Program-made: the position numbers and the translations under genes | In this document: positions 21,558 to 46,376 of the stretch, one piece after another | Position numbering within the stretch: the stretch's first letter is position 1 | Layout of the letters: each line of letters starts with the position of its first letter | Source: an uncultured delta proteobacterium | GTDB taxonomy: Bacteria > Desulfobacterota > Syntrophia > Syntrophales > UBA2192 | NCBI GenBank assembly: GCA_963828305.1 | Contig: CAWHEJ010000012.1 | Location: 117,129-181,128, forward strand | Direction: 5' to 3' | Length of the DNA stretch: 64,000 nucleotides | Notes under the pieces: model-generated | Seen by the model: only the letters and a program-made list of their open reading frames with translations | Told to the model about the DNA's origin: nothing | The model's database searches: none

Positions 21558-21563
21558 AAACAG

Positions 21564-21598
21564 CCACAAGCCGCAAGCCGCAAGCCACAAGCCACAAG
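21564..21598. repeat. tandem heptamer array CCRCAAG x5
   Basis: ccacaag ccgcaag ccgcaag ccacaag ccacaag lies 6 nt after the DUF493 stop codon. Confidence 0.7.
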
Positions 21599-25890: not shown

Positions 25891-25926
25891 AGTGTCTGAG
25901 TGTCTGAGTGCTTGAGTGCGTAAGTG
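25891..25926. repeat. tandem octamer array (reverse orientation of the CACTCAGA family)
   Basis: agtgtctg agtgtctg agtgcttg agtgcgta agtg is the reverse complement of the CACTCAGA-type units. Confidence 0.65.
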
Positions 25927-26035
25927 ATTGAACGCTTCGAGATATTCTTCACTAAAGCACTATCGCACTTCTGCACTGCACCGCTTTTTGACCAGCCCAA
26001 AGAGGAATCCTCCTTATCGTGGCGGACGGGTGCCG

Positions 26036-29722: not shown

Positions 29723-29887
29723 GCAGCCCGGTCCGAACACAGATCGGAAACGATCCCTTCGAAGAGATCCCCGACCGCCCTGCTGCCGTGCACGTTTAGT
29801 TTTTCTCTTTCTTTTCAAATGCTTCTTCGGTATGCTTTCCATCGAGGGCTGCAAAGGACAAACGACATCATCCAAGGAGGGGGAAAG

Positions 29888-30355
29888 ATGAAAAAAGTCG
29901 GGTTCACACTTGGGTTGGTTGTGGCATTTTGCCTGGTGTTCTCGTCGGCCTGGGCGGCAAGTCCGGACGACATCATAGGGAAATGGCTGAACGGGAAACA
30001 GACAGCCCACGTGGAGATCTACAAGGCCGACGGGAAGTACCACGGAAAGATCGTCTGGCTGAAGGAGCCCGTTTACCCCGCCGATGACAAGAAAGGCATG
30101 GCGGGAAAGCAGAAGGTGGACCGTGAAAACCCGGATGCTGCAAAGCGCAACCAACCCATCCTGGGCCTGGCCATTCTCCGGGATTTCGTTTTCGTGAAGG
30201 ACGGCCTCTGGGAAAACGGGATGATCTACGACCCGGAAAACGGCAAGGACTACAAGTGCAAGATGACCCTGGAATCACCGGACGTGCTCAATGTCCGCGG
30301 CTACATCGGCATCTCCCTTCTCGGCCGGACGGATACGTGGACGAGGGTTAAATAG
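29888..30355 (+). CDS. DUF2147 domain secreted protein
   Basis: Signal peptide plus the IIGKWLNGKQTAHVEIYKADGKYHGKIVW motif typical of DUF2147. RBS AGGAGG. Confidence 0.7.
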   Translation: MKKVGFTLGLVVAFCLVFSSAWAASPDDIIGKWLNGKQTAHVEIYKADGKYHGKIVWLKEPVYPADDKKGMAGKQKVDRENPDAAKRNQPILGLAILRDFVFVKDGLWENGMIYDPENGKDYKCKMTLESPDVLNVRGYIGISLLGRTDTWTRVK

Positions 30356-30361
30356 CACAGG

Positions 30362-30388
30362 ATCGAGGTTCGAGGAACGAGGTTAAGG
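30362..30388. repeat. tandem heptamer array CGAGGWW x3 (GGA-rich)
   Basis: cgaggtt cgaggaa cgaggtt aaggaaa. The core cgaggaacgagg also occurs at 57662. Confidence 0.55.
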
Positions 30389-30390
30389 AA

Positions 30391-30456
30391 AAAAGAAATC
30401 CCCCTTACATCCCCCTTTCATAAAGGGGGAAAAGAGGGGGATTTTTTATTGCCTGA
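30391..30456. repeat. 66-bp two-tier palindromic element, copy 1 (terminator-like hairpin plus T-run)
   Basis: aaaagaaatcccccttacatccccctttcataaagggggaaaagagggggattttttattgcctg has outer stem aaatccccct/agggggattt and inner stem cccccttt/aaaggggg. Confidence 0.8.
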
Positions 30457-31043
30457 ATCCCGAATCCTCACGCGCAAATGACAGACCGTGGGTGTCAACC
30501 CGGGCATTAACTTCTTCCTGCATCCGATAAACATCACTTTTCGCATTATGGCGGATTACAATCGGCAATACTGGCCGCTCCCTTCAATTTCCCCAAAAAA
30601 AAACACAAGATTCAGCTGAAAATGTCGAAAAGGATAGATGAAGACTTATCGTAATGGCCGCAATAGTCGAAGAGGTTGCCGAACTCATTCTCTGGCTGAT
30701 TTCGGCTTTCTCTCTGCCTAGACGGGCGAAATAGTCTTATTTGTCGTGACGCCAGGAAAACACAAACCAAGATGGGATCTTTATACGACATACTCTCCGG
30801 TCCGGTTTGGGCTCTTCTCAGACATCAGTTTTTGGATCGGCATGGCTTTCCGGGTTGTGATGCTTGTCGCGCTCTATGAGCGATTGCTTGAGTGATGGAA
30901 TAATACAGAGAACGTATAACCGGCACGTCCAGCGAAGCCGCGAGAGACGCGTCTCGGTGACGCCGGTGTTGGGCTTTCAATCTCGCTGGAGCAAGTACTC
31001 TAAGCCCAAAGGGCATTGAGAATACACAAGAAGGAGAACTACA

Positions 31044-32957
31044 TTGATAACAGGAATGATAGCATTGATTGCTGCAGGTATCGTTGTTATTGGTGTCCTG
31101 CTGCTTATCCTTGGCGGTTTTTGTTTGATTGGCCCCAATCAAGTCGGCATCCTTACGAAAAACATGTTTGGCAAAAAAATGCCTGAAGGACAAATCATCG
31201 CGCGTAACGGGGAAATAGGGGTTCAGGCGAGGACTTTGATGCCGGGGCTCTATTGGAGGATGCCTGTAATCTGGTCATTTGCCAAAGTTCCGGTAGTGGC
31301 GGTAGATATTGACAGTATCGGCATCGTCGAATCTATTGACGGCGAACCACTCCCCAAAGGGAGAGTGTTGGCCGACGAAGTCGAGTGTAATCAATTTCAA
31401 GATGCAGAGATGTTCTTAGCCAATCATGGAAAAAAGGGGCCGCAGGTCGGAATTCTGCGTCCAGGCACCTACCGGATCAATTCCAGACTGTTCAATATTA
31501 CCGCAGCTCCCGCGGTGAAAATAGATGAGAATACGGTTGGTATCGCCGTTGCCAAGGATGGGATTCCCTTGCCGACTGGCTATGTCATCGCCCCGAAGGC
31601 TCAAAATAATGACGGCACCGAAGCAGACCACAAGGCGTATCAAAATGGGCAGCTCTTTATCGACAGCAAAGGGTACCGGGGACCGCAGTTGGATACCCTG
31701 CAGCCGGGAATCTACTTCATCAATCCGAACTTATTTGACATTAAGATTGAAACGGTTGCAGAGGTCCTTCCAGGATACGTGGCGGTAATCAGGTCCAACG
31801 TGGGATTGGAGTTGGAGAGGACATCCGAGGGGCCAGATAAAACTTCCGGTGAAGGAAGACTGGGAGGTCCGATCCATGAAGATGTTGAGAAAATACTGAT
31901 CACCAATAAATATACTCGCGGCATTTGGAGAGAGCCGATCGCGCCAGGGAAATACAATCTGAATACGATTGCTTTCTCTGTCTATCAAGTGCCTACTTCC
32001 GCCGTCACCATCGATTGGGCAAGCGAGGGAAGAATCGGGACAGAGGTAAAGGGAGTTAAACCGACGGAGGCTAAGGCCGCGGGGGTACTGTACAGTTTTG
32101 ATCCCTTGAAGGTGACTTCTAAAGACGGCTTTCAATTGGAAGTCAATGTTCGAATGGTGATTCGAGTTCAGCCGGGCAATGCGGCCTACATCATAGCCCG
32201 GTTCGGGTCCGTGGCCAATCTGATCGATCAAATCGTCCATCCGCTGATCGATTCGTCTTTCAGGAATAAAGCCGGCGAGAAGAAAGCGATTGACTTTTTC
32301 CAAAGCCGGACGGACTTGCAGACCGAAGCACTGGCACACGCCAAAGAAAGATTTTCCGAATACAACGTAGAGGCTCAAAACCTGCTCATTGCCTATATCG
32401 ATATCCCGAAGGATTTGTTGGATACTCAAACCAAGAAGGAGATTGCCAATCAGCAGCAAGCCCAGTATGACCAGGAGGCACTGGCCCAGGAAAAACGCAT
32501 TGCGGTCATGGAGAAATCGTCTCGGGCGGATAAACAGAAAGATGTTATTGATGCCAAATTATCTATCGACATCAATAATGATCGGGCTGAGGCCAAAGTG
32601 AAGGAAGCTGACGGGAACAGGCGCTCTGTGATTCTTCAAGCTCAAGGGACAAAAGACTCCACAATCCTGATGGCTCAAGGGACTAAAGAATCTACCATAC
32701 TGGTGGCCGATGGCAATTCTTACAAAAGCAAGATTGAGGGCGACGGTGTTGCCGCTGCCTACATTGCCCAGAAGGAGGCCATTGGTCAGCAGAATGTAGC
32801 GATCATCAAACTCATTCAGGAAATAGCGGCCGGTAAGATTCAGATTGTGCCCCAGGTTCTGGTTGGGGGTGGGGAGGGCTCGGCGAGCGGCAACCTGTTC
32901 AATGCGTGGTTATCTCAAATGATTTCTCAAAACGCACCGAAAAATGAGGGAAAATAG
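31044..32957 (+). CDS. flotillin/SPFH (band-7) family protein, YqiK-like, N-terminal TM anchor
   Basis: TTG start 7 nt after AAGGAG. The N-terminal TM helix is followed by an SPFH-like region and a long Ala/Glu/Gln-rich coiled coil (EALAQEKRIA...). The gene is about 48% GC against about 64% in its surroundings. Confidence 0.7.
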   Translation: MITGMIALIAAGIVVIGVLLLILGGFCLIGPNQVGILTKNMFGKKMPEGQIIARNGEIGVQARTLMPGLYWRMPVIWSFAKVPVVAVDIDSIGIVESIDGEPLPKGRVLADEVECNQFQDAEMFLANHGKKGPQVGILRPGTYRINSRLFNITAAPAVKIDENTVGIAVAKDGIPLPTGYVIAPKAQNNDGTEADHKAYQNGQLFIDSKGYRGPQLDTLQPGIYFINPNLFDIKIETVAEVLPGYVAVIRSNVGLELERTSEGPDKTSGEGRLGGPIHEDVEKILITNKYTRGIWREPIAPGKYNLNTIAFSVYQVPTSAVTIDWASEGRIGTEVKGVKPTEAKAAGVLYSFDPLKVTSKDGFQLEVNVRMVIRVQPGNAAYIIARFGSVANLIDQIVHPLIDSSFRNKAGEKKAIDFFQSRTDLQTEALAHAKERFSEYNVEAQNLLIAYIDIPKDLLDTQTKKEIANQQQAQYDQEALAQEKRIAVMEKSSRADKQKDVIDAKLSIDINNDRAEAKVKEADGNRRSVILQAQGTKDSTILMAQGTKESTILVADGNSYKSKIEGDGVAAAYIAQKEAIGQQNVAIIKLIQEIAAGKIQIVPQVLVGGGEGSASGNLFNAWLSQMISQNAPKNEGK

Positions 32958-32970
32958 ACAACAGCGACTG

Positions 32971-33036
32971 AAAAGAAAATCCCCCTTGCAGCCCCCTTTC
33001 ATAAAGGGGGCTGCAAGGGGGATTTTTTATTGCCTG
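32971..33036. repeat. 66-bp two-tier palindromic element, copy 2 (about 90% identical to copy 1)
   Basis: aaaagaaaatcccccttgcagccccctttcataaagggggctgcaagggggattttttattgcctg. Confidence 0.8.
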
Positions 33037-33054
33037 TGCCCTTTACCCTGGACC

Positions 33055-33705
33055 CTAGTCTGAGACGACTTCTGGGCGCATGGACACGATCGCCGTCCTG
33101 CCTTCCTTCGGTTCGCTGCCGTACTGCTTGTACAGGGCCAGGACACGCTTGACGTAGCCCTTCGTTTCCGCGTAGGGAGGGATGCCGCCGTATCTGGCCA
33201 CGGCCTTTTCGCCCGCGTTGTAGGCTGCAAGGGCAAGGGGAAGGTGGCCGTTGTAAACGTTCATGAGATAGCGCAGGTACTTGACGCCGCCTTCGATGTT
33301 GGACTCGGGTTCGAAGCTGTCCTTCACCTGCAGGGTCGAGGCGGTCTTCGGCATGAGCTGCATGAGGCCCTGGGCGCCCTTGGGCGAGACGGCCTTGTGG
33401 TTGAAGTTGGACTCGGCCTTAATGACGGCCTTGACGAGGGAGTAATCGACCTTGTACTTGTCGGAGGCCTTCTGGATCAAGGGCCCGTATTTCGTCATGT
33501 CGATGCCGGCCTTGATGATCACCCGCCGCTCCTTGATCCAGAGCTTGTAATCGGGGCTGGTGGGCAGGTTGGTGATGTGCATGACCCCTTTCTCGTCCGT
33601 GTAACGGTAGATGTCGGCATGGGCCGGCACAGCCGGGAAAAGGACGCCAAGCGTCAACATCCCGAGCACGACGGCAACGAAAACGGGCTTTGCATAGGGG
33701 TTCAT
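33055..33705 (-). CDS. lytic transglycosylase domain protein (Slt/MltE family), secreted
   Basis: Signal peptide MNPYAKPVFVAVVLGMLTLGVLFPAVPAHA and catalytic motif AVIKAESNFNHKAVSPKGAQGLMQLMP. Upstream ATGs at 33798 and 33828 are alternatives. Confidence 0.7.
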   Translation of the reverse strand: MNPYAKPVFVAVVLGMLTLGVLFPAVPAHADIYRYTDEKGVMHITNLPTSPDYKLWIKERRVIIKAGIDMTKYGPLIQKASDKYKVDYSLVKAVIKAESNFNHKAVSPKGAQGLMQLMPKTASTLQVKDSFEPESNIEGGVKYLRYLMNVYNGHLPLALAAYNAGEKAVARYGGIPPYAETKGYVKRVLALYKQYGSEPKEGRTAIVSMRPEVVSD

Positions 33706-34063
33706 ATACGGCACCGACGGGTCATCGAATTCTACCCAGGCGATTCTTCTATCAAAATTATGGGTTGGGAGAAAGCGGAAACTTTCCCGGCCCATCATGC
33801 CTGAAAAGAGCTTCAAGAACCATACCACCTCTATTTCCTATCGGCATCGCCCGCCATAACCTGAGCCTCAGCCGCGCAATCCGATGGACCGTCCGGGGAC
33901 GCCTGGGGAGTTTTGGCCCTACATCCCGGGGCAGACCGGCCCTGACTCGACGACAATCTAAATTTTCCTAATGATATTGAATAAGTTACCGATAATTAAC
34001 TTCAGGGGCCGGTCGAGGCCCGATGGAAAACGGCCCGCCAACAGCGACCCCCAAGGAGCGGTG

Positions 34064-35128: not shown

Positions 35129-35189
35129 GGATTTAATCTCTCAGTTCTTCCTGAAGCCTGCTGCCTGTAGCCTGCAGCCGCAAAGCTGC

Positions 35190-36690: not shown

Positions 36691-37335
36691 GTGACAGAAA
36701 ATCGAAATGACACGCTCACGGCGGAAACCAAGTCGCGGTGGGACCGTCTTGCGAAACACTACGGCCTCGTCGAGTTCGTCTCGGAGTGGTACCTGAAGCC
36801 CTTCCGAAGGATCCTGTGGGCTTATGCCGCGGGACGCATCCTCGAGGCGGGAGCCGGGACGGGGCTCAATATAGCTTTCTACCCGCCGGGGGCCCGGGTC
36901 ACGGCGACGGATCTGTCCGGAACCATGCTGAGGAGGGCCCGGGAGCGCGCCCGCGAGCAGAAGGTAGATGTCACCTTCGAGGAGGCGGATCTCTGCGCCC
37001 TCCCCTTCGCAGACCACGCTTTCGATACGGCCGTGGCGACCTTCGTCTTCTGCTCCATGCCGGACCCGGTTGCGTGCCTGCGCGAAATGGGTCGTGTGAC
37101 CAGACCTGGCGGGCAGATCCTTCTTCTGGATCACGTGCGGATCGAGAGCCCGCTGATCGGCCCGCTGATGGACCGGCTCAACTCCGCAACGGTCCGCCTC
37201 GCCGGCGAGCACATCAGTCACCGGATGGATGAATTCGTGCGTGAGGCCGGAATTGAAATCCTGGAAAAACGCCGCCTTGGTCTGATGGGCATCATCCAGT
37301 TCATCGTCGCCCGGCCTGGAAAAGACAGAAGTTGA
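36691..37335 (+). CDS. class I SAM-dependent methyltransferase
   Basis: GTG start. Motif I ILEAGAGTGLN and post-I ATDLS. Confidence 0.75.
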   Translation: MTENRNDTLTAETKSRWDRLAKHYGLVEFVSEWYLKPFRRILWAYAAGRILEAGAGTGLNIAFYPPGARVTATDLSGTMLRRARERAREQKVDVTFEEADLCALPFADHAFDTAVATFVFCSMPDPVACLREMGRVTRPGGQILLLDHVRIESPLIGPLMDRLNSATVRLAGEHISHRMDEFVREAGIEILEKRRLGLMGIIQFIVARPGKDRS

Positions 37336-37358
37336 GAAGGTAAGAAGTTGAGAAGGTA
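37327..37358. repeat. 16-bp direct repeat x2 (agaagttgagaaggta)
   Basis: It begins within the methyltransferase stop codon (gaagtTGA). Confidence 0.6.
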
Positions 37359-37513
37359 AGAAAAAACCGGGGAAAGAGGTTTGTAACGAAAGCGTCGAGC
37401 CATAACGCGGGAAGCGGCTGCAGGCATTCTCTTGACAGCTCGGAAATGCTTCCCTAGACTCATTTTGCAACCATTAACCGCGCATCGTGCGGACAAAGAG
37501 GAGAAACGGGCCT

Positions 37514-39166
37514 ATGAACACCTTCAAGCAGGCCGCCGTGAAGATATACAACGACGCAAAGAAAGAGAAGCGCCTCACCGAGGGCCGCACCCTCGATGAG
37601 CTCAAGCGCATCGCCCTGCGCCATGAGGGCGTGATCCAGACGCAGGCCGGCTCGGTTGCCGCCGACTCGGAACCCATGAGCCGCTCGGCCCCCCACACCC
37701 GCAACAACATCGATCACGCCTTCGGCGAGCCTGAGGAGAAGCTCGCGCATCAGGCCGTGGAGCGCCTCTCGAAAGAAAAGATCGTCTGCCTCGACACGAT
37801 GGTGGGCGACGGCCGCGATGGGGTCACGGCGCGGTTCATCATGCCCGAGCAGTACGCCCAGATCGCTTACGGGCTCAAGCTGCTCATGGACTACCCCGCA
37901 GCGAGGGTCGTCGAGGAGCCCACCTACACGATCATTTTCTTCACCGACGAGGCTTTCGAGCCGAACAAGAAAAAGAAGCTCCTGGACAAGGACATCACCG
38001 TGCGCCTCTGGATGGGCGAGAAGCGGGGCGAGCAGGTCAAGATCTGCCGCAACACCGTCTACCTCGGTGAGGGGAAAAAGGGCGTCTTCATGTTCGAGGA
38101 CTGGCGCGTGAAGGCCATCGACAGGACGGGCATCTTCCTTCACGCCGGCGCCCGGAGGGACTGGCTCTGGATCCACGACCTCGAGACGGACAGGCCGGAG
38201 CTGACGGAAGTCGTCACGGCCATCTCGGGGCTCACGGCCACCGGGAAAACGACGACGCTGTGCCGCCGTCTTGCCCGCCTGCCCCGGGAGACCTCCGAGA
38301 TGATCGGCGACGACGGCGGGGCCTTCGCCTTCGACGGCGGCTATGCCGCCTACGAGATCGGCGGGCTCTACGTAAAGACGGAAGGCCTTGACCAGAGCCA
38401 GCCCGAGATCCTCCGGGCGGCCGAGTCGAGGGACGCCTTCCTGGAAAACGTGGCCGTCACGAAGTACCCCTACATGCCGGACTTCAAGGACACCCGCAAG
38501 ACCGGCAACGGCCGGGCCATCGTGACACGGGAGAAGCTCGAGATCGCAAGCCCCGGGCTTCGCGCCGACCGGCTGCACTACATCGTCATGCTCACGCGAA
38601 ACCCTCTGGCCAATGTGATCAGCAAGCTCACGCCCGAGCAGGCCACCATGCAGTTCATCTATGGCGAGTCCATCGAGAGCTCAGGCGGCAACCCCGAGGA
38701 GGCGGGCAGGTTCAAGCGCGAGTTCTTCCTCGACCCCTTCGTGGCGGGCGACCGGCTCGAGCACGCTATGATCTTCTACGAAATCCTCCGGAAGAGCCGC
38801 ATCAAGTGCTACCTGGCCAACACGGGGACCATCGGCCAGGACGAGCAGAAGGTGACGCTGAGGCAGTCGCTGGCGACCTACAACGACTTGCTTCGCTACC
38901 AGCTCCGCTTCAGCTACGAACCGGACTACCTCGGGCTGCACTACCCGATCAAGTGCGACCGGGCAAATCTCGATTTCATGATCGCCCACCGCCTCTTCCC
39001 CGACAAAGAGCTGCTCAAGAAGAAGCTCAGCGATTTCTTCCGCGGCCGCGAGCAGTACCTGGAGGCCTTCGAAGGCAAATACGGGAAGATCCCCGAGGCG
39101 ATCCGCGAGTCCGTCCCCTACCGCTACCGCGACATCAACGACAGCGAGAGGATCATGGCGGAATAG
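37514..39166 (+). CDS. phosphoenolpyruvate carboxykinase (ATP)-family protein, divergent
   Basis: Kinase-1a-like GLTATGKTTTL, FDGGYAAYEIGGLYVKTEGL (compare hDEWgW..GvFNfEGGCYAKt), and CYLANTGTIG (compare LVNTGWnG). 551 aa. Confidence 0.6.
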   Translation: MNTFKQAAVKIYNDAKKEKRLTEGRTLDELKRIALRHEGVIQTQAGSVAADSEPMSRSAPHTRNNIDHAFGEPEEKLAHQAVERLSKEKIVCLDTMVGDGRDGVTARFIMPEQYAQIAYGLKLLMDYPAARVVEEPTYTIIFFTDEAFEPNKKKKLLDKDITVRLWMGEKRGEQVKICRNTVYLGEGKKGVFMFEDWRVKAIDRTGIFLHAGARRDWLWIHDLETDRPELTEVVTAISGLTATGKTTTLCRRLARLPRETSEMIGDDGGAFAFDGGYAAYEIGGLYVKTEGLDQSQPEILRAAESRDAFLENVAVTKYPYMPDFKDTRKTGNGRAIVTREKLEIASPGLRADRLHYIVMLTRNPLANVISKLTPEQATMQFIYGESIESSGGNPEEAGRFKREFFLDPFVAGDRLEHAMIFYEILRKSRIKCYLANTGTIGQDEQKVTLRQSLATYNDLLRYQLRFSYEPDYLGLHYPIKCDRANLDFMIAHRLFPDKELLKKKLSDFFRGREQYLEAFEGKYGKIPEAIRESVPYRYRDINDSERIMAE

Positions 39167-39265
39167 CGATCAATGAACAATCCTGTCATTCCCGCGGAGG
39201 CGGGAATCCAGAAAAGATTGGATGCCGGATCAGGTCCGGCATGACATATTCACACAACAAATCGA

Positions 39266-39297
39266 AGCCGCCCCTCGTTTCGAGCGGGCGGCTTTTC
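39266..39297 (+). terminator. rho-independent terminator candidate after the PEPCK-like gene
   Basis: agccgccc-ctcgtttcgag-cgggcggc followed by ttttcatt. Confidence 0.5.
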
Positions 39298-39312
39298 ATT
39301 ACACGATCCGGT

Positions 39313-39356
39313 GATTGCCTCTAACGCAGAATAACACGACTGCCCCCAACTGCACC
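39313..39356. repeat. 44-bp direct repeat, copy A (partner at 40669..40710)
   Basis: gattgcctctaacgcagaataacacgactgcccccaactgcacc is about 80% identical to copy B. It shares cagaataacac with 36664. Confidence 0.65.
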
Positions 39357-39497
39357 CCAGGAGCGCCCAGGCCGCGCCTTTCACCTGTTTATCCTCAAAC
39401 TTCCATAATGTTGAAGTGTGACGATTACGTAAAGTAAGGTTCGATTTCTCATGAACTTTCGGCGATCGTATTTTCCGCTCGCTCTCACGTGGCACTC

Positions 39498-40250
39498 TCA
39501 TATCAGCCCTAATTTCCGTCCGAGGGAGAACCCGAGTTTTTCCAGCCGTCTCATGTACCAGTAGGTCCCCGCATTGTCGAGTGAGTCGAGTGATGCAATC
39601 AGATCGGTAAGGTAATCCCCCATGTGAGAGAAGTAGTCAAGCTCCCTGCGCTTCGTGAAATACGGACCGGAAAAAAGCCGCATCAAATCACGCAGAGCGA
39701 TGATCCCTCCCCTTTTTTCCTTGTTGAATTCTCCCCACTTGCGAAGATGTTCTTCCGACCGGAAGAAGTGCATCGTGCTTCACGAGTAGGGTACGTTGAG
39801 CATCCACCTTCCGATGGGTACGGAGACATGGCCAATCAACCCTTTCGGCTCCTCCGTCTCGATCTTGCCGTCCTTCACCTCCACTCTTATGGGCTCGCCA
39901 CAATCAAGACACACTGAATCGATACGCACCGTCTTCCCCGGAAAAAGCCAGCAGACCGCCAGCGATTCAAACGCTCACTGGCCGAACCATTTCTGAATGC
40001 CATCGATAGTCAAACGGTAATGTGTTGGGAGATTGTTGAAGGGTGCGAAAGACACGATATTGTCGGTTTTCGGGTAAAGCCACCCCGGAAAGCCGAGGGT
40101 CGAAAAGAGCTTGCGGAGTGTATTCCTGCCTTTCTCGGGCGACACACCCAGCGCGGCTGCTATCTCTGTGTAGTGCGGCGCTTGTCCGGTTGCAATCATC
40201 TTTTCGATGATAATGTGAAACGTCTGATCCAGTTCACTTGGCGTTGACAT
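39498..40250 (-). CDS. organomercurial-lyase (MerB)-like protein with two in-frame TGA codons at the positions of the MerB catalytic cysteines; candidate selenoprotein
   Basis: Three same-frame segments (40250..39978, 39974..39783, 39779..39498) are separated only by TGA at 39975..39977 and 39780..39782. Each nucleotide was hand-verified, and there are no other stops. Context ...KWFGQ-U-AFESLAV... matches MerB YAWC96ALD99TL, and ...PYS-U-STMHFFRS... matches MerB FC159CHVHFFAS. Strong SD AGGAGGT lies 6 nt upstream of ATG 40250. Hairpin UUCUUCC-GGUC-GGAAGAA starts 13 nt after the second UGA. Confidence 0.7.
39750..39767 (-). promoter_or_regulatory. SECIS-like stem-loop downstream of the second in-frame UGA
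   Basis: The perfect palindrome ttcttccgaccggaagaa forms a 7-bp stem with apical loop GGUC, 12 nt after UGA 39780..39782. Spacing is typical of bacterial SECIS. Confidence 0.45.
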
Positions 40251-40668
40251 GTCTTTACCTCCTTTTTCACAGGCAGGTGAATGCATGAATTTGTTTTATG
40301 CAAAAATAGATATTCTGAGTCTCGTAAAACGTGATTCCCCACAGAGGTATGGTAACCGCCATGGAAGCCGTAATATCGGCACCAGCCGATAACTCCTTTT
40401 CACGGCGGACTCCAGAAGGTAAAGGGGAAGGTTGATGGGTTTATTGAGCTAATAAGAGAAACGACGATTGATGAATGCTCTTATGAGAAGGTAAAGTCAA
40501 AAGAAAAATAGTCTCGGTTCTGAGCCCAAATTGAAGATACAGGGTTGTAAAAATTCGATTATTGGGAAAACCAACAGTTCCGTCAGGAAGGATTACTGTC
40601 TGAAAGGGTTATCTTTTGCAGAATTGCCGGACGCTTTGTTACAGGAAGAAGTAGATGCCCGCCCCCAT

Positions 40669-40710
40669 TATTGCCTATCACGCATAATAACGTGACTCTC
40701 CCCAACTGCC
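40669..40710. repeat. 44-bp direct repeat, copy B
   Basis: tattgcctatcacgcataataacgtgactctccccaactgcc. Confidence 0.65.
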
Positions 40711-40814
40711 AATCTGATGGTGACAAACCGGGTCATCTGCCATAAAATGGATACGCTGACTGTTTCGTATGGAGTCTCGAAAGATGGTATAATGAGTTGG
40801 TCGGAAGGAGCTGC

Positions 40815-41243
40815 ATGATGCTCGAGGAAACAACCCTGTCCAGAAAAGAGATGCGGGGCAAACGCAAGCCGTCGATGCTGATTCTTGGCAGCTTCGAGAA
40901 GCTGAAGCAGGATCTGATCCCCGCGCTTTTCCGCATCGCCGGCGATCATGGGATCGGGCATATCGACATCAAACCGTCGACGGAGGCTGTCGATGTGAAG
41001 CAGCTCAAGGGATACACCCTGGTCTTTGTGGCTTTCGAGATTTACAGAGACAATGAATCCTTCTTCCGCTTGCTGCCGGAATCCATCCAGGAACGGATCA
41101 CCATCCTGTCAAGGCCCGCAGACTTCCCTTCCGTGGCCCCGGATATCAAATGCGCATGCTACTGCTCTGAGTTGAAGGCTCTCCTGCCCAGGGAAGAGGC
41201 GCAACTCTTCGACCACCACACCGAGTCCCCTAAGCCCCGATAG
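40815..41243 (+). CDS. hypothetical protein (142 aa)
   Basis: ATGATG preceded by GGAAGGAG. No recognisable domain. The segment is AT-richer than its surroundings. Confidence 0.45.
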   Translation: MMLEETTLSRKEMRGKRKPSMLILGSFEKLKQDLIPALFRIAGDHGIGHIDIKPSTEAVDVKQLKGYTLVFVAFEIYRDNESFFRLLPESIQERITILSRPADFPSVAPDIKCACYCSELKALLPREEAQLFDHHTESPKPR

Positions 41244-41319
41244 CGTAAAGTTCGAGCAGGACCCCGATTAATTCTCACGCAAATCCAAATCTGCAAATGT
41301 GAAGGGATGCCCCTGGTTT

Positions 41320-41673
41320 CTATACTTCGACCAGGACCTTGAATCCGCCGTATACCATCCGCTTGATGTCGAAGGGCATCTCCTTCATATCGCCCATTTT
41401 TTCCATTTCTTTCATCACCTTTGCATTGACGCGATCGCGATGTGCCCGCGACTTGAATACGATATACGAGAAAACCACGGTTTCGCCGGGCTTCAACTTC
41501 ATCAGGCGCGAAAATGGCATCCCCCACTTGGTCTTTAAGTCCTCACCGACGCATTCCTTGTAATCAAGGGCACCGTGTTTCATCCATATCTTTGCTCCCA
41601 TCCTGGCCATGCGTGCATAGGTTTTCAGGTTTTTCTTCGGGATAGGTAAAACGTATCCATCAACGTATCTCAT
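41320..41673 (-). CDS. DUF1428 family protein
   Basis: MRYVDGYVLPIPKKNLKTYARMARMGAKIWMKHGALDYKECVGEDL is typical of DUF1428 (YbaA-like). RBS AAGGAGGT lies 5 nt upstream of 41673. Confidence 0.7.
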   Translation of the reverse strand: MRYVDGYVLPIPKKNLKTYARMARMGAKIWMKHGALDYKECVGEDLKTKWGMPFSRLMKLKPGETVVFSYIVFKSRAHRDRVNAKVMKEMEKMGDMKEMPFDIKRMVYGGFKVLVEV

Positions 41674-42123
41674 CGTAACCTCCTTTTGCGTCAATGATGA
41701 AGTTGTCACGGCTATAGGCTTAATCGCTGTTCTACGAACGTTAGAAATGAGGTAGTTGGATTGACGGGACGACAGACGGGAACATCTACAAACTCATTTG
41801 TAAATACGTCCATACTGAAGGGCAGTCAAGAGCAATCGTAATGATGACATGCATTTGAAATGTGAGAGGGCGGTATTTCTTTACACCATCGGGTCTTATT
41901 CGAGAGTCATTGTCCGTGATTTATTTGCGGGAGTTATTATAGACATCTGAGAGTAAACATATGTCAATGTTCAAGGCTGATGCCGCTTTTACAATGCACG
42001 CAGCTCATGCAAAGCCAAATCTGCAAATGTGAGGGGCGTCCCCGATTTTCCACTCTTGAGGGTTAGGAGGTTATGTTCAGCGTCTAGGTTCGCCAGCATT
42101 CTATCCAGATAAATGCTTCATCC

Positions 42124-42576
42124 TTAATCGGGTACGTTACGCGGGAGCGGTTGCCCCTTCTTAACAATTTCCACCGCTTGTGCGAACCTCTTATGATAAG
42201 TACCTTCTGTCAGGGTCGTTGCAATGTTCACCGTGACTCTTCGTTTTGTGACAACGGTGACTTTTGTGTTCTTCTTATCAACGGGCTCAATCCACGCCCC
42301 CATAACGGCTCCCCATGAAACCAGATTCATTCCACTGCTGGTCAGCATGTAACCCTGATCCCTGTGCTCTTCAATTGCATCGGAGCCCTCCCACCGGAAC
42401 ACGGTTTTTGAGATTTCCCATGCTTGATCGACATTAACAGGGTAAACCTTTGTTGTGCCTTCCGACCCGTCCTCCTTGACCCGCACCACATCGTTCATCG
42501 TGGCACATCCACTAAGCAGCGCAACAAATGACAAGAAAATGATCCATGCCAAGACCCTGCATCCCTTTTCCTTCAT
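42124..42576 (-). CDS. hypothetical lipoprotein
   Basis: Lipobox LLSGC after an N-terminal hydrophobic segment. 150 aa. Confidence 0.6.
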   Translation of the reverse strand: MKEKGCRVLAWIIFLSFVALLSGCATMNDVVRVKEDGSEGTTKVYPVNVDQAWEISKTVFRWEGSDAIEEHRDQGYMLTSSGMNLVSWGAVMGAWIEPVDKKNTKVTVVTKRRVTVNIATTLTEGTYHKRFAQAVEIVKKGQPLPRNVPD

Positions 42577-42781
42577 GTGCCGACCCCCTTATTGGTATTT
42601 GCCATAAAAAACCGGACTTACCAAAGATTTAGCTTCAGCAGTCCGGTTGATACACGCATTTCAACTACCATACTCCGCATCCCGCGTTCACAGGTGTGGC
42701 TATGTAAAAATGTTCTTTGCTCATTAATGAATTGACTCATAAAACTCGATGAAGCCGGATCAGGCACCCGATTGTACTGCA

Positions 42782-43960
42782 TCAAAGATATGAGAGCCAC
42801 CAATCGTGACGCCGAGCCTTGACTCCCGCGAACCATGCACAGGCGGGGTACATGGTAACAACGGTGAGCAACCACACGATATAGACGCCGCCGAGTGAAA
42901 GCCCGAAGTTTGGTGGAGTCTCAAGAAAGACAACGGCCATCTCGCGCAGAGTGAATCCCTGCCAAAGCCCGATGGAAACGGCGATCGCGTGAATGAGGTA
43001 AAGATGGAGGATATAGTAGAAAAATGACACCCGCCCGATAGTCACCAGGATTGTGACGGCTTTCCCCGTTAGCCGCTCGAACCATCCGAGCAGCATGAGT
43101 GCGGGCCCCAGCGTCATAAGCAGGAACTGCAGGGAAACGGGATACTTCGTGACATTGAGAAAGCTGATAATCGTTGCAGCCGTGTTCTGCTGTGGCGCCC
43201 AAACCGCCGGGTCGCCGTAGAGATTTGTCAGGCGAAGCAGGAGGAACGAGAGCGTCAGGACTGCACCGGTGAGCAGGAGACGCCCGGGGCGCTCAGGGTT
43301 GGGGCCCACAAAATAGGGGCCTATCGCGTAACCGAGTGCCATGACGCCGATCCACGGAATCAGCGGGTAGATAATGAATGCCACAGGCGTGCCGCCAACC
43401 TCGAGAGTCCCGGGGATGTGCAGAATAATCCACAGGGGCGAAGCCTCGGAGAGCACCGGCTGAATGCCGTCCAGTCCATTATGCGCAGCGATCATCACCA
43501 CGCCGAAACCCGCGATGGCAGCCCGGGGCAACCAGACGAGAGCGGAGAGCGCGATCATCGACCACCCGATTGCCCAGATCACCTGCAGCAAGAGCTTTGA
43601 GTGCAGGTTGAAGGACCAGGCGAATCCGATGACGGTCAATTCGAGGAAAACAAGCCACACACCGCGGCTTGCCAAAAAGCGCGTGACCTCGCCCGTGGAC
43701 CGTTGCCGGGTCGCGCCGTACATGAACGCGCTCACACCCGCGAGCAGCACGAAGGTCGGCGCGCAAAAATTCGTGATCCAGCGGGTGAAAAACAACGCAC
43801 CTGCCGAACCGGCGAAATCCACCGCTGCCGAATAATTGGCACTCTGCGGGTGTGTCACCATGTCGCGCACGTGGTCGAGCGCCATGATGACCAGGACGAC
43901 GCCGCGCAACATGTCGATCGAGGTGAGACGATTTCTGCGAGCCGGCGCTTCTACGCCCAT
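42782..43960 (-). CDS. DUF1624/acyltransferase-family integral membrane protein (heparan-alpha-glucosaminide N-acetyltransferase-like)
   Basis: RLTSIDMLRGVVLVIMALDHVRD N-terminal motif and about 10 TM segments. Confidence 0.6.
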   Translation of the reverse strand: MGVEAPARRNRLTSIDMLRGVVLVIMALDHVRDMVTHPQSANYSAAVDFAGSAGALFFTRWITNFCAPTFVLLAGVSAFMYGATRQRSTGEVTRFLASRGVWLVFLELTVIGFAWSFNLHSKLLLQVIWAIGWSMIALSALVWLPRAAIAGFGVVMIAAHNGLDGIQPVLSEASPLWIILHIPGTLEVGGTPVAFIIYPLIPWIGVMALGYAIGPYFVGPNPERPGRLLLTGAVLTLSFLLLRLTNLYGDPAVWAPQQNTAATIISFLNVTKYPVSLQFLLMTLGPALMLLGWFERLTGKAVTILVTIGRVSFFYYILHLYLIHAIAVSIGLWQGFTLREMAVVFLETPPNFGLSLGGVYIVWLLTVVTMYPACAWFAGVKARRHDWWLSYL

Positions 43961-44271
43961 TCAGTCATGTTCTCCCTATCTCTGCAAAATAGCGCCCGTA
44001 TTTGAACGGATCCTGACCCGAAAGGTCTTCACGAATAGCGTCGTTACCTGGGGTCGTGTCTTGCATTTCAACTTCTCCATCCTCTCCCGGAAAGCTCAAA
44101 ATGCAAAAGACCCCGCTCTCTTCCGAGGTACGGGGTCTGTTAACTCATTGTACTCCTCCCTAGGAGGGTTCGGAGGTTATGTTGGGTTATGCCTGCTTCA
44201 TTTCATCCGGTGCATTTGTAAACGGATTATCCATCCATTTCAAGAGCTTTGTTTATGGGTACCCGCTTGTT

Positions 44272-46098
44272 TTACGGTAGAGGCGGCCGCTCTGCGATCT
44301 TGCGAATCCGGCAGTGCTGCCTGATGATGTCCAGGACAACGTCTCCGTATTTCTCGAGTTTCGCAGCGCCTATGCCGTGGATCCGGGAAAGACCGTCCTT
44401 GGTTTGCGGCAGATGGGTCGCCATTTCCTTCAAGGTACGGTCATGGAATACCGTATAGGGAGGGATGTTCAGCCGGTCGGCGATCTCTTTGCGTTTTTTC
44501 CGCAGAAGCTCAAAAAGGCCGGGGTCGTATTGACCTGGGGCTTCCGCCCTGGAATCGAGGCCCGCAACCTCCTTCTCCAAAAGCCCCGAGACGGATTCCT
44601 TTCCTCTCAAAACCTCCCATGCCTTGTGGGTCAGCTTCAGGGCTCCGTGCTCCAGATCCTGGATCATCAGGCCCTTGCGAATAAACTGACGGGCCAGGTG
44701 GCGCCATTGCTTTGCCGAATGCGCCTTTCCTATGCCATAGGTGGATAACCGGTCATGCTCATGTTGTAGAATTTTGATCGATTTCGAGCCCCGCAAAATG
44801 TCGACGACATGACCGGCGCCGAAGCATTCACCGGTTCGCTTGACACAGGAAAGAAACATCTGCGCGGGAATCGTGATATCGGACAGATCCCTCTTCTCGA
44901 TTTTGCAGTTGTCGCACATCCCGCAGGCAGCATGTTCAGCTTTTTCGCCGAAATACTCCAGCAGGGGGACGCGCCGGCAAAGCTCCGTCTCCGCGTAGCC
45001 CAGGATGGTGTCCAGAAGAACATTGGCGATCACCTGTTCATTCCCGGTTTTTTGCTGGATGAAGTACCGGACATTCCGCACGTCGCCATAACCGAACAGC
45101 ATCAGGCAGCGGGCGGGCAGACCGTCCCGTCCGGCCCGTCCGATCTCCTGGTAGTACGTTTCCAGGCTTTTCGGCAGGTCGTAATGGATAACGAAACGGA
45201 CATTGGGCTTGTTGATTCCCATGCCGAAGGCAATCGTCGCCACGATGATCTGGATGTCATCCTTGACGAAGAGGTCCTGATTTTCCGTGCGCACCTCGTC
45301 GGACAGGCCGGCATGGTAAGGCCTGACGGAATAGCCCTTTTCGTGGAGAAATGCATGGAGATGGTCCGTCTGCCTGCGCGAAAAGCAATAGATGATCCCC
45401 GATTCGTTCCGGCAGGATTTCAGGAATTCCGCGATTTGCTCGAGAGGCGCGATCTTGGGTTCGACTTCCAGGAAGAGATTCGGACGATTGAAACTGCCGA
45501 TGAATTCTTCGGTCGCACCGATCTGCAGGGACTTTTTGATGTCGTCGCGAACCCGCCTGGTTGCGGTGGCGGTCAGGGCGACACAGACTGCGTCCTTGAA
45601 CAGATCGCGCAACCCGCCCAGTTGACGGTATTCCGGCCGGAAATCATGGCCCCACTCCGAGATGCAATGCGCTTCGTCAATGGCGATGCAGTCGACTTTC
45701 ATCGTCGATAGCAGGGCAAGGGTCCTGGGACTCAACAGGGCTTCCGGGGACAGGTAAAGCAGTTTCACCCTGTTCGCCTTGAGCTTCTCGACATGACGGC
45801 GATACTCATCGGGCTTCAGGGTACTGTTCAGAAATACGGCCGCAACGCCGCATTCCTGCAGCTCGTCCACCTGGTTTTTCATCAGCGAGATCAGGGGAGA
45901 GATGACGATCGTCAATCCCTCGTAGATCAGGGCCGGGATCTGATAGCAGAGGGACTTGCCTCCCCCTGTCGGCAAGACGACAAGGGCATTCCTCTTTTCC
46001 AGGAGATGGGCGATGATGGCCTCCTGGAGGGGCCAGAAGTCATCATAGCCGAACACGTTTTTGAGAACGGACTTCGCCCCGGCCAGCCCTTCACTCAT
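44272..46098 (-). CDS. recQ: ATP-dependent DNA helicase RecQ
   Basis: Motifs LPTGGGKSLCYQIPAL and DEAH (AIDEAHCISEWGHDFR), a zinc-binding Cys cluster and an HRDC-like C-terminus. RBS GGAGG lies 5 nt upstream of 46098. Confidence 0.9.
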   Translation of the reverse strand: MSEGLAGAKSVLKNVFGYDDFWPLQEAIIAHLLEKRNALVVLPTGGGKSLCYQIPALIYEGLTIVISPLISLMKNQVDELQECGVAAVFLNSTLKPDEYRRHVEKLKANRVKLLYLSPEALLSPRTLALLSTMKVDCIAIDEAHCISEWGHDFRPEYRQLGGLRDLFKDAVCVALTATATRRVRDDIKKSLQIGATEEFIGSFNRPNLFLEVEPKIAPLEQIAEFLKSCRNESGIIYCFSRRQTDHLHAFLHEKGYSVRPYHAGLSDEVRTENQDLFVKDDIQIIVATIAFGMGINKPNVRFVIHYDLPKSLETYYQEIGRAGRDGLPARCLMLFGYGDVRNVRYFIQQKTGNEQVIANVLLDTILGYAETELCRRVPLLEYFGEKAEHAACGMCDNCKIEKRDLSDITIPAQMFLSCVKRTGECFGAGHVVDILRGSKSIKILQHEHDRLSTYGIGKAHSAKQWRHLARQFIRKGLMIQDLEHGALKLTHKAWEVLRGKESVSGLLEKEVAGLDSRAEAPGQYDPGLFELLRKKRKEIADRLNIPPYTVFHDRTLKEMATHLPQTKDGLSRIHGIGAAKLEKYGDVVLDIIRQHCRIRKIAERPPLP

Positions 46099-46376
46099 TA
46101 TGGCCTCCGGGCATCTGCGTCTGGAATGGCCCGTCATCGATGCGGTTCGTCGTTCTCATGAGTTCGCTGCTCCATGCCATATTTTATGGACGCATGAATA
46201 TGCATGGAATATGGGCCGATGTCGAGGTTATTGTAAAATGATGATTGATTTCCCCGGGCTTTGGAGATAAAAGCACTACTTCGCCAAGAACGATAAGGTG
46301 GGGCAGTCTACGCTTTGGAATCCAAAAACGAATATTACACCGCTCCGCTCCCAAGAAGCAGCACCATTTCAGGGAG

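What the first reader, a model, noticed from the sequence alone, without database searches (positions are those of the whole stretch)
30391..33036. Low-GC flotillin/SPFH gene bounded by two 66-bp palindromic elements: inserted cassette
The 2.5 kb between the two about 90% identical two-tier hairpin elements is about 45-50% GC, against about 64% outside. Each element is also a plausible rho-independent terminator. The interval holds a 580-bp non-coding leader and one gene. The gene has a TTG start after AAGGAG and encodes a TM-anchored SPFH/flotillin-like protein with a long coiled-coil tail. The composition break falls exactly at the repeats, which argues for horizontal acquisition with the hairpin element acting as, or duplicated at, the insertion site.
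Basis: seen in the sequence. Interest (0 to 1): 0.55.

Follow-up and report, generated by a model that had tools for sequence, protein, structure and literature searches.

The report
Foreign membrane gene between duplicated terminators
A low-GC membrane-scaffold (SPFH) gene from another lineage sits in a slot between two conserved genes where related bacteria carry nothing or other genes, and it is bracketed by two copies of the slot's own terminator hairpin; this is a clear but fairly ordinary gene-acquisition hotspot.

Summary
Two 66-nt hairpin elements (30390-30455 and 32971-33036, 86% identical) bracket 2.5 kb of 49% GC DNA in a roughly 60% GC chromosome. The interval holds a 588-nt non-coding leader and one 637-aa SPFH/Band_7 gene.

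The host belongs to the Syntrophaceae/Syntrophales. In 8 of 15 related loci the convergent genes DUF2147 and SLT (a lytic transglycosylase) are adjacent, with a single terminator hairpin between them. In two of those relatives that hairpin aligns to both window copies. The other relatives carry different cargo in the same slot: rubrerythrin, an M48 peptidase, MoaE plus an ABC transporter, PhaC with two other genes, and a CsgG cluster. None carries SPFH.

The SPFH gene is foreign. Its GC3 is 0.55 against 0.76-0.87 for host genes. Its closest relatives (81-93% DNA identity) lie in unrelated contexts in 45-51% GC genomes and have no such hairpins.

A sharp change in divergence inside SLT (p = 2e-8) indicates that the filled slot entered this genome by homologous recombination in the flanking genes. 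No integrase or transposase lies nearby.

The best reading is a 'minimal mobile element'-type hotspot whose resident bidirectional terminator was duplicated around the insert. How the duplication arose is inferred, not shown. Interest is moderate to low.

The parts
29885..30355 (+). DUF2147 gene, the conserved left flank of the slot (the longest ORF begins at 29819)
   Evidence: Pfam PF09917, E = 2e-37. It is syntenic in all relatives.
30359..30382 (+). Heptad repeats (AGGATCG/GAGGnnC) that form the outer left arm of the extended palindrome around hairpin copy 1
   Evidence: TRF reports period 7 with 3.4 copies. The repeats pair with 30456-30473 in the fold, dG -58. The same heptads occur at 57644-57711.
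30390..30455 (.). Hairpin copy 1: two-tier 'C5' stem-loop with an A-run and a T-run. It is closest to the single orthologous modules of relatives.
   Evidence: It is 92% identical to the L143 module, 91% to L066 and 89% to L070.
30456..30966 (+). Unique low-GC non-coding leader. The first ~18 nt pair with the left heptads; the origin of the rest is unknown.
   Evidence: No ORF of 60 aa or more, no Rfam hit, and no match in any fetched locus or in plasmids. The whole leader 30456-31043 has GC 0.485.
30967..31043 (+). Conserved 77-nt upstream region that travels with the SPFH gene and includes the AAGGAG ribosome-binding site
   Evidence: 80-95% identical in five unrelated SPFH loci, and the homology starts abruptly here. 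There is no structure signal.
31044..32957 (+). SPFH/Band_7 gene, 637 aa, TTG start, N-terminal membrane helix; this is the foreign cargo
   Evidence: Pfam PF01145, E = 1e-22. GC3 is 0.553 against 0.76-0.87 in host genes. More than 120 homologue clusters at 84-95% aa identity.
32640..32705 (+). 33-nt tandem duplication inside the gene (11-aa unit AQGTK(D/E)STIL(M/V), two copies)
   Evidence: Homologues have one or two copies.
32971..33036 (.). Hairpin copy 2: perfect 26-bp stem, a bidirectional terminator between SPFH and SLT, and a paralogue of copy 1
   Evidence: Its closest relative is copy 1 at 88% by gapped alignment (86% ungapped). Homology to SPFH loci elsewhere ends at 32972.
33037..33054 (.). 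Spacer of CCC-heptad type between hairpin copy 2 and the SLT stop codon
   Evidence: The same type of spacer lies next to SLT in relatives.
33055..33705 (-). SLT lytic transglycosylase gene (216 aa from MNPYAKP), the conserved right flank of the slot
   Evidence: Pfam PF01464, E = 8e-32, and DUF4124. Homologues of 216-226 aa at 88-94% identity.
33055..33270 (-). The 3'-terminal ~200 nt of SLT has a different ancestry from the rest of the gene; this is a homologous-recombination footprint
   Evidence: 18.2% divergence from L070 here against 3.6% upstream, Fisher p = 1.8e-8. The control pair L062/L070 gives 4.7% against 1.8%. The breakpoint lies between 33256 and 33292, and the changes are mostly synonymous.

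Best explanation
The interval between the convergent core genes DUF2147 and SLT is a gene-acquisition hotspot in a Syntrophaceae lineage. In its basic state it holds one strong bidirectional intrinsic terminator: a two-tier hairpin flanked by an A-run and a T-run, set within short heptad repeats.

In this genome the slot holds a single foreign transcription unit. The unit consists of about 0.5 kb of unknown leader, a conserved 77-nt upstream region, and an SPFH membrane-scaffold gene that came from a lower-GC lineage.

The resident terminator module is present twice, once on each side of the insert. As a result DUF2147, the new gene and SLT each end at a terminator, and the insert is transcriptionally insulated.

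Shown: the insertion, the duplication of the 66-nt module, the foreign origin of the gene, the hotspot nature of the slot, and a recombination breakpoint inside SLT.

Inferred:
(a) The filled slot entered this genome by homologous recombination in the flanking genes with DNA from an unsampled, more divergent relative. This is the 'minimal mobile element' route.
(b) The primary event was either a duplicative illegitimate insertion at the hairpin, or a tandem duplication of the terminator module (slippage between heptad repeats) followed by insertion between the two copies.
(c) Copy 2 later became a perfect palindrome through a templated, quasi-palindrome-type correction.
(d) The hairpins act as terminators.
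(e) By family analogy, the SPFH protein forms membrane-anchored oligomeric scaffolds.
For: Empty sites. L061, L062, L063, L064, L065, L067, L068 and L071 have a 106-148-nt gap between DUF2147 and SLT that holds one hairpin. The window segments 29854-30444 and 32971-33690 are collinear with L061, and its single hairpin aligns to both copies. The L143 module aligns to both copies over exactly 66 nt.

Hotspot. The same slot holds different cargo in L070 (rubrerythrin), L056 (M48), L057/L058 (MoaE plus ABC), L142 (VTT, PhaC, DUF1003) and L143 (CsgG cluster). L058 and L142 share both flanking hairpins but no cargo.

Foreign gene. The insert has GC 0.493 against 0.61 and 0.585 in the flanks. GC3 is 0.553 against 0.76-0.87. 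Substitutions on the window branch run AT->GC 49 against GC->AT 17, as expected for amelioration. DNA identity of 81-93% to five loci in unrelated contexts is confined to 30967-32972. None of those loci has the hairpin.

Hairpin history. Copy 1 is closest to the orthologous modules (89-92%) and copy 2 is closest to copy 1. Nearly all differences lie in the two 6-nt inner arms, apart from a one-base shift in the 5' A-run.

Recombination. There is a breakpoint in SLT at 33256-33292, p = 1.8e-8, with mostly synonymous changes.

No mobility genes. None appears within 8 kb in the annotated relatives or among the 45 window ORFs scanned.

Terminator features are shown.

Literature. Hotspots that lack mobile elements and show recombination at flanking core genes are described in PMC5635113. 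The definition of a minimal mobile element is in PMC3082526. Quasi-palindrome template switching is described in PMC7202029 and PMC8794818.
Against: The mechanism that duplicated the 66-nt module is not observed, and 66 nt is far longer than any usual target-site duplication.

The left recombination breakpoint is not clear (DUF2147: p = 0.03-0.2).

The closest relative by flanks (L062) has a different hairpin sequence in its empty slot. Hairpin type therefore does not follow the phylogeny, and the ancestral state of this genome's slot is uncertain.

The source genome was not found in any collection, so the genome-wide copy number of the hairpin is unknown.

Similar hairpins occur at other terminators in relatives (L070, L061) and in 45 loci across many phyla. 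Two similar terminators could therefore, in principle, meet without a local duplication.

Terminator activity and SPFH function were not tested.
Confidence: 0.72

Rival explanations
1. Campbell-type integration. A circular DNA carrying the leader, SPFH and one copy of the hairpin module recombined with the resident hairpin by a single crossover, either RecA-dependent on about 66 nt of homology or catalysed in trans. This would leave one module on each side and allow excision by the reverse reaction.
For: The insert is bracketed by direct repeats of 66 nt in the same orientation, which is the classical product of a single crossover. Identical stretches of 19 and 20 nt are shared by the two copies. 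The empty site holds exactly one copy.
Against: SPFH loci elsewhere carry no such hairpin, so a donor circle with this clade-specific module needs an intermediate host in the same clade. The pattern of differences does not look like two reciprocal hybrids: copy 2 is a perfect palindrome and copy 1 is close to the orthologous modules. L070 has two different hairpin types around its cargo. No recombinase gene is nearby.
Confidence: 0.15
2. The hairpins are structure-specific recombination sites, in the manner of attC or REP/RAYT, used by an unidentified hairpin-recognising enzyme. On this view the slot is a one-site cassette-exchange system.
For: Cargo in four occupied slots (window, L058, L142, L070) is bracketed by hairpin modules, and L058 and L142 share the hairpins but not the cargo. 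All cargo genes in all six occupied slots point the same way as DUF2147. The conserved C5 blocks repeat with an 11-nt period. The inner arms covary across 45 loci.
Against: There is no GTTRRRY-type core at the hairpin ends and no shared junction motif. No integrase, Y1 transposase or other recombinase lies within 8 kb in any relative, or among the 45 window ORFs scanned. The cargo does not travel with the hairpin: SPFH loci lack it, and the 45 C5 loci lack SPFH. Copy number in sampled DNA is low. L143 and L056 were clearly filled by recombination within DUF2147 homologues. The covariation is partly imposed by the search pattern.
Confidence: 0.08
3. There was no local duplication. The incoming DNA simply brought its own terminator of the same widespread hairpin family and landed next to the resident one.
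For: The hairpin family is dispersed: 45 loci in many phyla and extra copies at other convergent gene pairs in relatives. L070 and L066 show two different hairpin types side by side in this slot.
Against: The two window copies share the loop (CAT), the 5' A-run and 20 identical nt of 3' flank including ATTGCCTG. These features are specific to this slot's module in L143 and L070. Homology to SPFH loci elsewhere stops exactly at the start of copy 2, and none of those loci has the hairpin.
Confidence: 0.1
4. Assembly artefact. A low-GC contig was joined into a high-GC contig at the shared hairpin repeat.
For: The source appears to be uncultured: only metagenome-derived relatives were found. Repeats of this kind break or mis-join assemblies, as seen in the JACAEW01 contigs that end at similar hairpins.
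Against: It would need two mis-joins and a donor contig with the same clade-specific hairpin at both ends. The gene shows GC-ward substitutions consistent with residence in a GC-rich genome. The two copies differ at 9 positions. Other relatives independently show occupied slots.
Confidence: 0.03

Closest known systems
Minimal mobile elements (Neisseria; Saunders & Snyder 2002, Snyder et al. 2007, as defined in PMC3082526) and HGT hotspots without mobile elements (Oliveira et al. 2017, PMC5635113)
   Same: Two conserved flanking genes hold different whole-gene cassettes in different relatives. The cargo carries no mobility genes. There is a recombination footprint in a flanking core gene.
   Different: The host is an uncultured anaerobe in the Syntrophaceae, and natural transformation is unknown for it. 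The insert is bracketed by two copies of the slot's own 66-nt terminator, which is not part of the definition of a minimal mobile element. The left crossover is not resolved.
Integron gene cassettes with attC sites
   Same: One or a few genes, all in the same orientation, are bounded by imperfect palindromes of 60-70 nt whose sequence varies while the hairpin is kept.
   Different: There are no R/L core sites (GTTRRRY) and no IntI or attI. The cargo does not travel with its hairpin. The empty site keeps a hairpin that belongs to the host's convergent genes and looks like a canonical terminator.
REP/BIME elements and REPINs with RAYT transposases
   Same: Both are extragenic palindromes at the 3' ends of convergent genes, form a dispersed family within a clade, and have terminator-like properties.
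   Different: Density is low here (2 copies in 64 kb, both at one site). No RAYT was seen. The two copies form a local duplication around an insert, not a dispersed pair.
IS200/IS605-type elements and their non-autonomous derivatives (PATEs)
   Same: Similar subterminal hairpins lie at both ends of a segment, with no terminal inverted repeats.
   Different: The empty site retains one hairpin, so the hairpins belong to the target and not to the element. There is no Y1 transposase, and no other copies of the unit are found.
Phage 'morons'
   Same: Both are a single foreign gene of deviant GC inserted between resident genes as an independent unit with its own upstream region and a terminator.
   Different: The context here is chromosomal, not a prophage. 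No close relative of the gene or of the hairpin was found in IMG/VR.

Membership tests
HGT hotspot / minimal mobile element | Two conserved flanking genes in the same order and orientation across relatives | tested here: met
   DUF2147 and SLT flank the slot in all relatives whose contig reaches both genes. The flanks are collinear with the window.
HGT hotspot / minimal mobile element | Different whole-gene cassettes, or none, between the flanking genes in different strains | tested here: met
   Eight slots are empty. Six identified cargo sets (including SPFH in the window) and one occupied slot of unidentified content (L066) were found.
HGT hotspot / minimal mobile element | Incorporation by homologous recombination in the flanking genes | tested here: inconclusive
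   The right side has a sharp breakpoint in SLT at 33256-33292, p = 1.8e-8. The left side shows no clear breakpoint in DUF2147.
HGT hotspot / minimal mobile element | No transposase, integrase or other mobility gene associated with the cargo | tested here: met
   Pfam lists for 8 kb on either side in five relatives and 45 window ORFs show none.
Intrinsic (rho-independent) bidirectional terminator | A G+C-rich stem-loop followed by a U-run on both strands, downstream of convergent genes | tested here: met
   Folds and scan. Copy 2 lies between the SPFH stop (32957) and the SLT stop (33055). Copy 1 begins 35 nt after the DUF2147 stop.
Intrinsic (rho-independent) bidirectional terminator | Transcripts actually end there | not testable with these tools
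   This needs Term-seq or RNA-seq of the organism.
Integron cassette / attC | attC core sites (R''/R' = RYYYAAC / GTTRRRY) at the ends of the palindrome | tested here: not met
   The hairpin ends read AAAATCCCCC...GGGGGATTTT, with no GTTRRRY.
Integron cassette / attC | An IntI integrase and attI next to the array | tested here: not met
   No tyrosine recombinase appears in the window ORFs scanned or within 8 kb in relatives.
Integron cassette / attC | The cassette travels together with its own palindrome | tested here: not met
   Five SPFH loci elsewhere have no such hairpin. The 45 C5-hairpin loci have no SPFH.
REP / REPIN-RAYT | Many dispersed copies per genome | tested here: inconclusive
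   There are 2 copies in 64 kb, both at this site, and 2 extra copies in the relatives' DNA. The whole source genome is not available.
REP / REPIN-RAYT | A cognate RAYT (Y1 transposase) gene in the genome | not testable with these tools
   The source genome was not found in the collections.
Transposon / IS | A transposase, terminal inverted repeats and a short target-site duplication | tested here: not met
   There is no transposase. The ends are direct repeats of 66 nt. The empty site retains one full copy.
SPFH (Band 7) protein family | An SPFH/Band_7 domain | tested here: met
   PF01145, E = 9.7e-23, 81.5 bits against a cut-off of 23.6, residues 299-481.
Flotillin sensu stricto | A flotillin-specific C-terminal domain or family model, or an NfeD partner gene | tested here: not met
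   Only Band_7 was matched in Pfam. There was no NCBIfam hit and only a weak QmcA match in the PDB. No NfeD gene lies in the insert. Full-length homologues are annotated only as 'SPFH domain-containing protein'.

The most novel reading that the evidence does not exclude
The terminator hairpins of this slot (the C5 and 'GGATC' types) may not be passive. They may be structure-specific landing or exchange sites that are cut or copied as hairpins or cruciforms. Foreign single genes would then be inserted with duplication of the whole hairpin, always in one orientation. That would amount to an integron-like cassette site without an integron integrase, built on a transcription terminator.
Probability: 0.08. 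Interest if true: 0.7.

Novelty: new member of a known kind. Interest (0 to 1): 0.35.

Why it matters
This is a clean natural example, in an uncultured syntrophic lineage, of how a single foreign gene is lodged in a chromosome without any mobile-element machinery. The gene sits in a slot between convergent core genes. It is insulated on both sides by copies of the resident terminator, and it is passed between relatives by recombination in the flanking genes.

The population series for one slot is unusually complete: 8 empty slots and 7 occupied ones (six identified cargo sets plus L066). It could serve as a test case for how terminators shape the sites where acquired genes survive.

The SPFH gene itself is of unknown role. 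It is highly conserved (84-95% aa identity) across many genomes in unrelated contexts, which suggests frequent transfer and a self-contained function. Nothing here overturns current views.

Tried and rejected
- Looking up the source genome by exact protein found nothing, and the window's own hairpins were not among the genome-contig hits.
- Rfam gave no hit in 29-35 kb, even at E <= 1.
- The 77-nt conserved upstream region shows no structure signal: z = -0.19 and no covariation.
- The leader 30456-30966 matches nothing in the fetched loci or in plasmids.
- The idea that the leader starts with a degenerate copy of the SLT 3' end was tested by local alignment against shuffles and was not significant. 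Leader versus SLT: 302 of 500 shuffles scored as well. Leader versus the L066 spacer: 20 of 500, which is marginal.
- PADLOC and NCBIfam gave no family for the SPFH protein.
- The AF2 model built from a shallow alignment failed (mean pLDDT 41), so no fold search was run.
- No close SPFH relative and no C5 hairpin were found in IMG/VR.
- A shared motif at the cargo junctions of the window, L070, L058 and L142 was looked for and not found.
- Integron, IS, IS200/IS605 and REP readings were considered and rejected on the membership tests.
- The reading 'SPFH is ancestral and was lost in relatives' was rejected on GC3, on the unrelated contexts of the homologues, and on the 8 empty slots.
Full report
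**Observation**

The window holds two direct copies of a 66-nt sequence at 30390-30455 and 32971-33036. They are 86% identical. A 34-nt core pattern finds only these two sites in 64 kb and none in 100 shuffles.

Each copy is a long 'two-tier' hairpin of the form AAATCCCCC-N6-CCCCCTTT-CAT-AAAGGGGG-N6-GGGGGATTT. Copy 2 is a perfect 26-bp stem (dG -49.1 kcal/mol, z -7.9). Copy 1 has an internal loop where the two N6 arms (TTACAT/AAAAGA) do not pair (dG -38.7, z -5.3). Both have an A-run before the stem and a T-run after it. The consensus scan calls copy 2 terminator-like on both strands.

The 2,515 nt between the copies have GC 0.493, against 0.613 and 0.585 for the 5 kb on either side and 0.599 for the whole window. 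Only this region and a second one at 39-43 kb deviate, in GC and in tetranucleotide usage.

The interval holds a 588-nt stretch with no ORF of 60 aa or more and no Rfam match. It also holds one 637-aa ORF (31044-32957), which has a TTG start 7 nt after AAGGAG and a Pfam Band_7/SPFH domain at residues 299-481 (E = 1e-22). The identity and the background GC were slightly overstated.

**The flanks and the host**

Upstream lies a DUF2147 gene on the + strand, ending at 30355. Downstream lies a lytic transglycosylase (SLT with DUF4124) on the - strand, ending at 33055. The two genes converge on the interval.

The SLT protein has many homologues at 88-94% identity from metagenomes. Those that carry a name are labelled Syntrophales or Syntrophaceae. 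The window's own proteins and hairpins are not in the searched collections.

**The slot in relatives**

I fetched the locus from 15 related contigs that are informative for the slot and located DUF2147 and SLT in each.

In eight of them (L061, L062, L063, L064, L065, L067, L068, L071) the two genes are separated by only 106-148 nt. That gap folds into one strong hairpin flanked by short heptad repeats, which themselves pair across the hairpin.

In L061 the hairpin is of the same C5 type. The window segments 29854-30444 and 32971-33690 are collinear with L061, and its single hairpin aligns to both window copies. The single module of L143 aligns to both copies over exactly the 66 nt. That module reads AAAAGAAAATCCCCCTTTTCTCCCCCTTTGCAAAAGGGGGAAAAGAGGGGGATTTTTTATTGCCTG.

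The resident module is duplicated around a 2.5-kb insertion.

**A hotspot**

The other relatives have other genes in the same slot:
- L070: a rubrerythrin.
- L056: an M48/PDZ peptidase.
- L057/L058: MoaE plus a two-gene ABC transporter.
- L142: a VTT-domain protein, PhaC and DUF1003.
- L143: a CsgG/DUF4810/GNA1162 cluster.
- L066: something cut off by the contig end.

None has SPFH. All of these inserts are lower in GC than their flanks (0.39-0.54). All cargo genes point the same way as DUF2147.

L058 and L142 share both flanking hairpins (a different 'GGATC' type) and about 100 nt inside each, but share no cargo. L070 has a C5 hairpin on the left and a GGATC hairpin on the right. In L143 the insert carries a low-GC fragment of a DUF2147 gene and splits the resident one. 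In L056 the DUF2147 gene is itself a divergent allele. Both cases point to recombination within DUF2147 homologues.

No transposase or integrase lies within 8 kb of the slot in any annotated relative, nor among the 45 window ORFs I scanned.

[quoted passage not shown] It also matches the class of HGT hotspots that lack recognisable mobile elements and show recombination at flanking core genes (PMC5635113).

**The cargo is foreign**

The SPFH protein has more than 120 homologue clusters at 84-95% aa identity. I read the context of five of them (L001-L010). All five contexts differ from one another and from the window, and the host DNA there is 45-51% GC.

DNA identity to the window (81-93%) is confined to 30967-32972. 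That span runs from 77 nt upstream of the start codon to the stop region of the family's ORF, and it ends exactly where hairpin copy 2 begins. None of these loci has a C5 hairpin.

In the window the gene has GC3 0.553, against 0.76-0.87 for five host genes. Polarised with outgroups, the window branch carries 49 AT->GC against 17 GC->AT changes. This is as expected for a gene drifting towards the composition of a GC-rich host. The roughly 72 changes on that branch show that the acquisition is not very recent.

The named homologues are mostly Thermodesulfobacteriota (Smithella, Desulfomonilia), with one Nitrospirota contig. The donor was therefore probably a lower-GC member of the same broad group.

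**History of the two hairpins**

Copy 1 is closest to the orthologous single modules of relatives (L143 92%, L066 91%, L070 89%). Copy 2 is closest to copy 1 (88%).

The two copies share the loop (CAT), the A-run, and 20 identical nt of 3' flank (GGGGGATTTTTTATTGCCTG). Nearly all differences lie in the two N6 arms; the only other is a one-base shift in the 5' A-run. In copy 2 the arms are perfectly complementary (TTGCAG/CTGCAA).

The simplest history is that copy 2 is a paralogue of the resident module. Two substitutions in one arm were then followed by a single templated 'quasi-palindrome' correction of the other arm, a known template-switch process (PMC7202029, PMC8794818). This step is inferred.

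**How it got here**

The window's closest relatives by flanking DNA are L062 (empty slot) and L070 (rubrerythrin), at about 90-93% identity.

Within SLT, the window differs from L070 at 12 of 330 positions in the middle of the gene, but at 39 of 214 positions in the last 200 nt next to the slot (Fisher p = 1.8e-8). L062 and L070 differ from each other at 6 of 330 and 10 of 214. The breakpoint lies between 33256 and 33292, and the changes are mostly synonymous. The SLT end, and presumably everything between it and some point on the left, therefore came from a more divergent, unsampled relative by homologous recombination.

On the left, no clear breakpoint is seen in DUF2147. The left heptad repeats do differ in type from those of L062 and L070.

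The event that first placed SPFH between two hairpin copies may therefore have happened in another lineage. What it was cannot be read from the sequence. I consider three routes:
- A duplicative illegitimate insertion at the hairpin.
- A tandem duplication of the terminator module by slippage between the heptad repeats, followed by insertion between the copies. L066 shows two hairpin modules in tandem, and L058/L142 show a stable two-hairpin scaffold with exchanged cargo.
- A Campbell-type single crossover of a circle carrying one copy.

**What the hairpins are not**

They are not ends of a mobile element, because the empty site keeps one. They have no attC core sites, and the cargo does not travel with them.

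They are not abundant. There are two in 64 kb, and two further copies outside the slot in the relatives' DNA, at least one of them at another convergent gene pair.

A scan of 185,579 species genomes for the strict pattern found 45 loci in many phyla. Of these, 34 lie within 150 nt of the end of an ORF, which fits a terminator role. That search pattern fixes the C5 blocks, so it says little about conservation.

**The gene product**

Only the SPFH domain is recognised. NCBIfam and PADLOC give nothing, and the PDB gives a weak QmcA match in the helical tail. Full-length homologues at 24-33% identity occur on Ralstonia, Rhizobium, Streptomyces and Clostridium plasmids and in a few phages.

A structure prediction from the shallow alignment failed (mean pLDDT 41), so no fold comparison was made.

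By analogy with the family, the protein is a membrane-anchored oligomeric scaffold. There is no NfeD partner and no flotillin-specific signature.

**Verdict**

The feature is a new, well-documented member of a known kind: a hotspot or minimal-mobile-element slot. Its one less usual detail is that the slot's own 66-nt bidirectional terminator is duplicated around the insert. A more exotic reading, in which the hairpins are active recombination sites, is not excluded but has little support.

Noticed in passing
window 39170-46480: This is a second variable region. In L142, L057 and L056 the PEPCK gene (window 37487-39166) is followed directly by the transglycosylase gene (window 46439-47413), so about 7.3 kb is extra here. 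Its low-GC part (39.2-42.8 kb, GC 0.42-0.53) holds small genes (DUF1428 at 41320-41709, a lipoprotein-like ORF at 42124-42576). It also holds two pairs of direct repeats that bracket them: 40 nt at 39314 and 40670 (83% identical), and 54 nt at 41274 and 42004 (78%).
   Followed up: partly
window 57644-57711; also 7531-7638, 21562-21598, 25891-25931, 35150-35179, 37327-37362, 50027-50054: There are many short (7-8 nt) tandem repeats in intergenic DNA. The stretch 57644-57711 is a long palindrome built of GAGGnnC heptads and their complement. These are the same heptads that flank hairpin copy 1 (30359-30382), but here there is no C5 core. This looks like a genome-wide habit of the host.
   Followed up: partly
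window 53236-53313 (+): A c-di-GMP-I-GGC riboswitch aptamer (RF03167, 70 bits against a gathering score of 59) lies at the start of a GMC-oxidoreductase-like ORF (53296-54663).
   Followed up: no
L012, L015, L023, L027, L037, L038, L049, L054, L055 (Syntrophaceae MAG JACAEW01); L030: A hairpin of the same two-tier pattern occurs 9 times in the fetched contigs of one MAG, with identical flanks and often at contig ends. It is therefore a true dispersed repeat there, possibly the end of an IS or MITE. The strict pattern occurs in 45 loci from Nitrospirota, Methylomirabilota, Dehalococcoidia, Aminicenantes and others.
   Followed up: partly
window 30967-32972; L001-L010: The SPFH gene, its 77-nt upstream region and nothing else is conserved at 81-93% DNA identity in five unrelated contexts. 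In each it is a lone gene preceded by 350-620 nt of unrelated non-coding DNA. What moves this 2.0-kb unit is unknown. There are no repeats at its ends.
   Followed up: partly
window 32640-32705: An 11-aa unit, AQGTK(D/E)STIL(M/V), is present once or twice among SPFH homologues. The window has two copies, from a 33-nt tandem repeat.
   Followed up: yes
window 33850-34050 versus L056, L057, L061, L142, L143: Most relatives have a short-chain dehydrogenase gene (adh_short, about 0.83 kb) next to the SLT gene. The window, L062 and L070 lack it.
   Followed up: no
L143 8798-12023: In this relative the CsgG-cluster insert splits DUF2147. One called product fuses GNA1162-like and DUF2147 domains, and a low-GC copy of the DUF2147 3' end lies at the other border. 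This suggests acquisition by recombination between DUF2147 homologues.
   Followed up: partly
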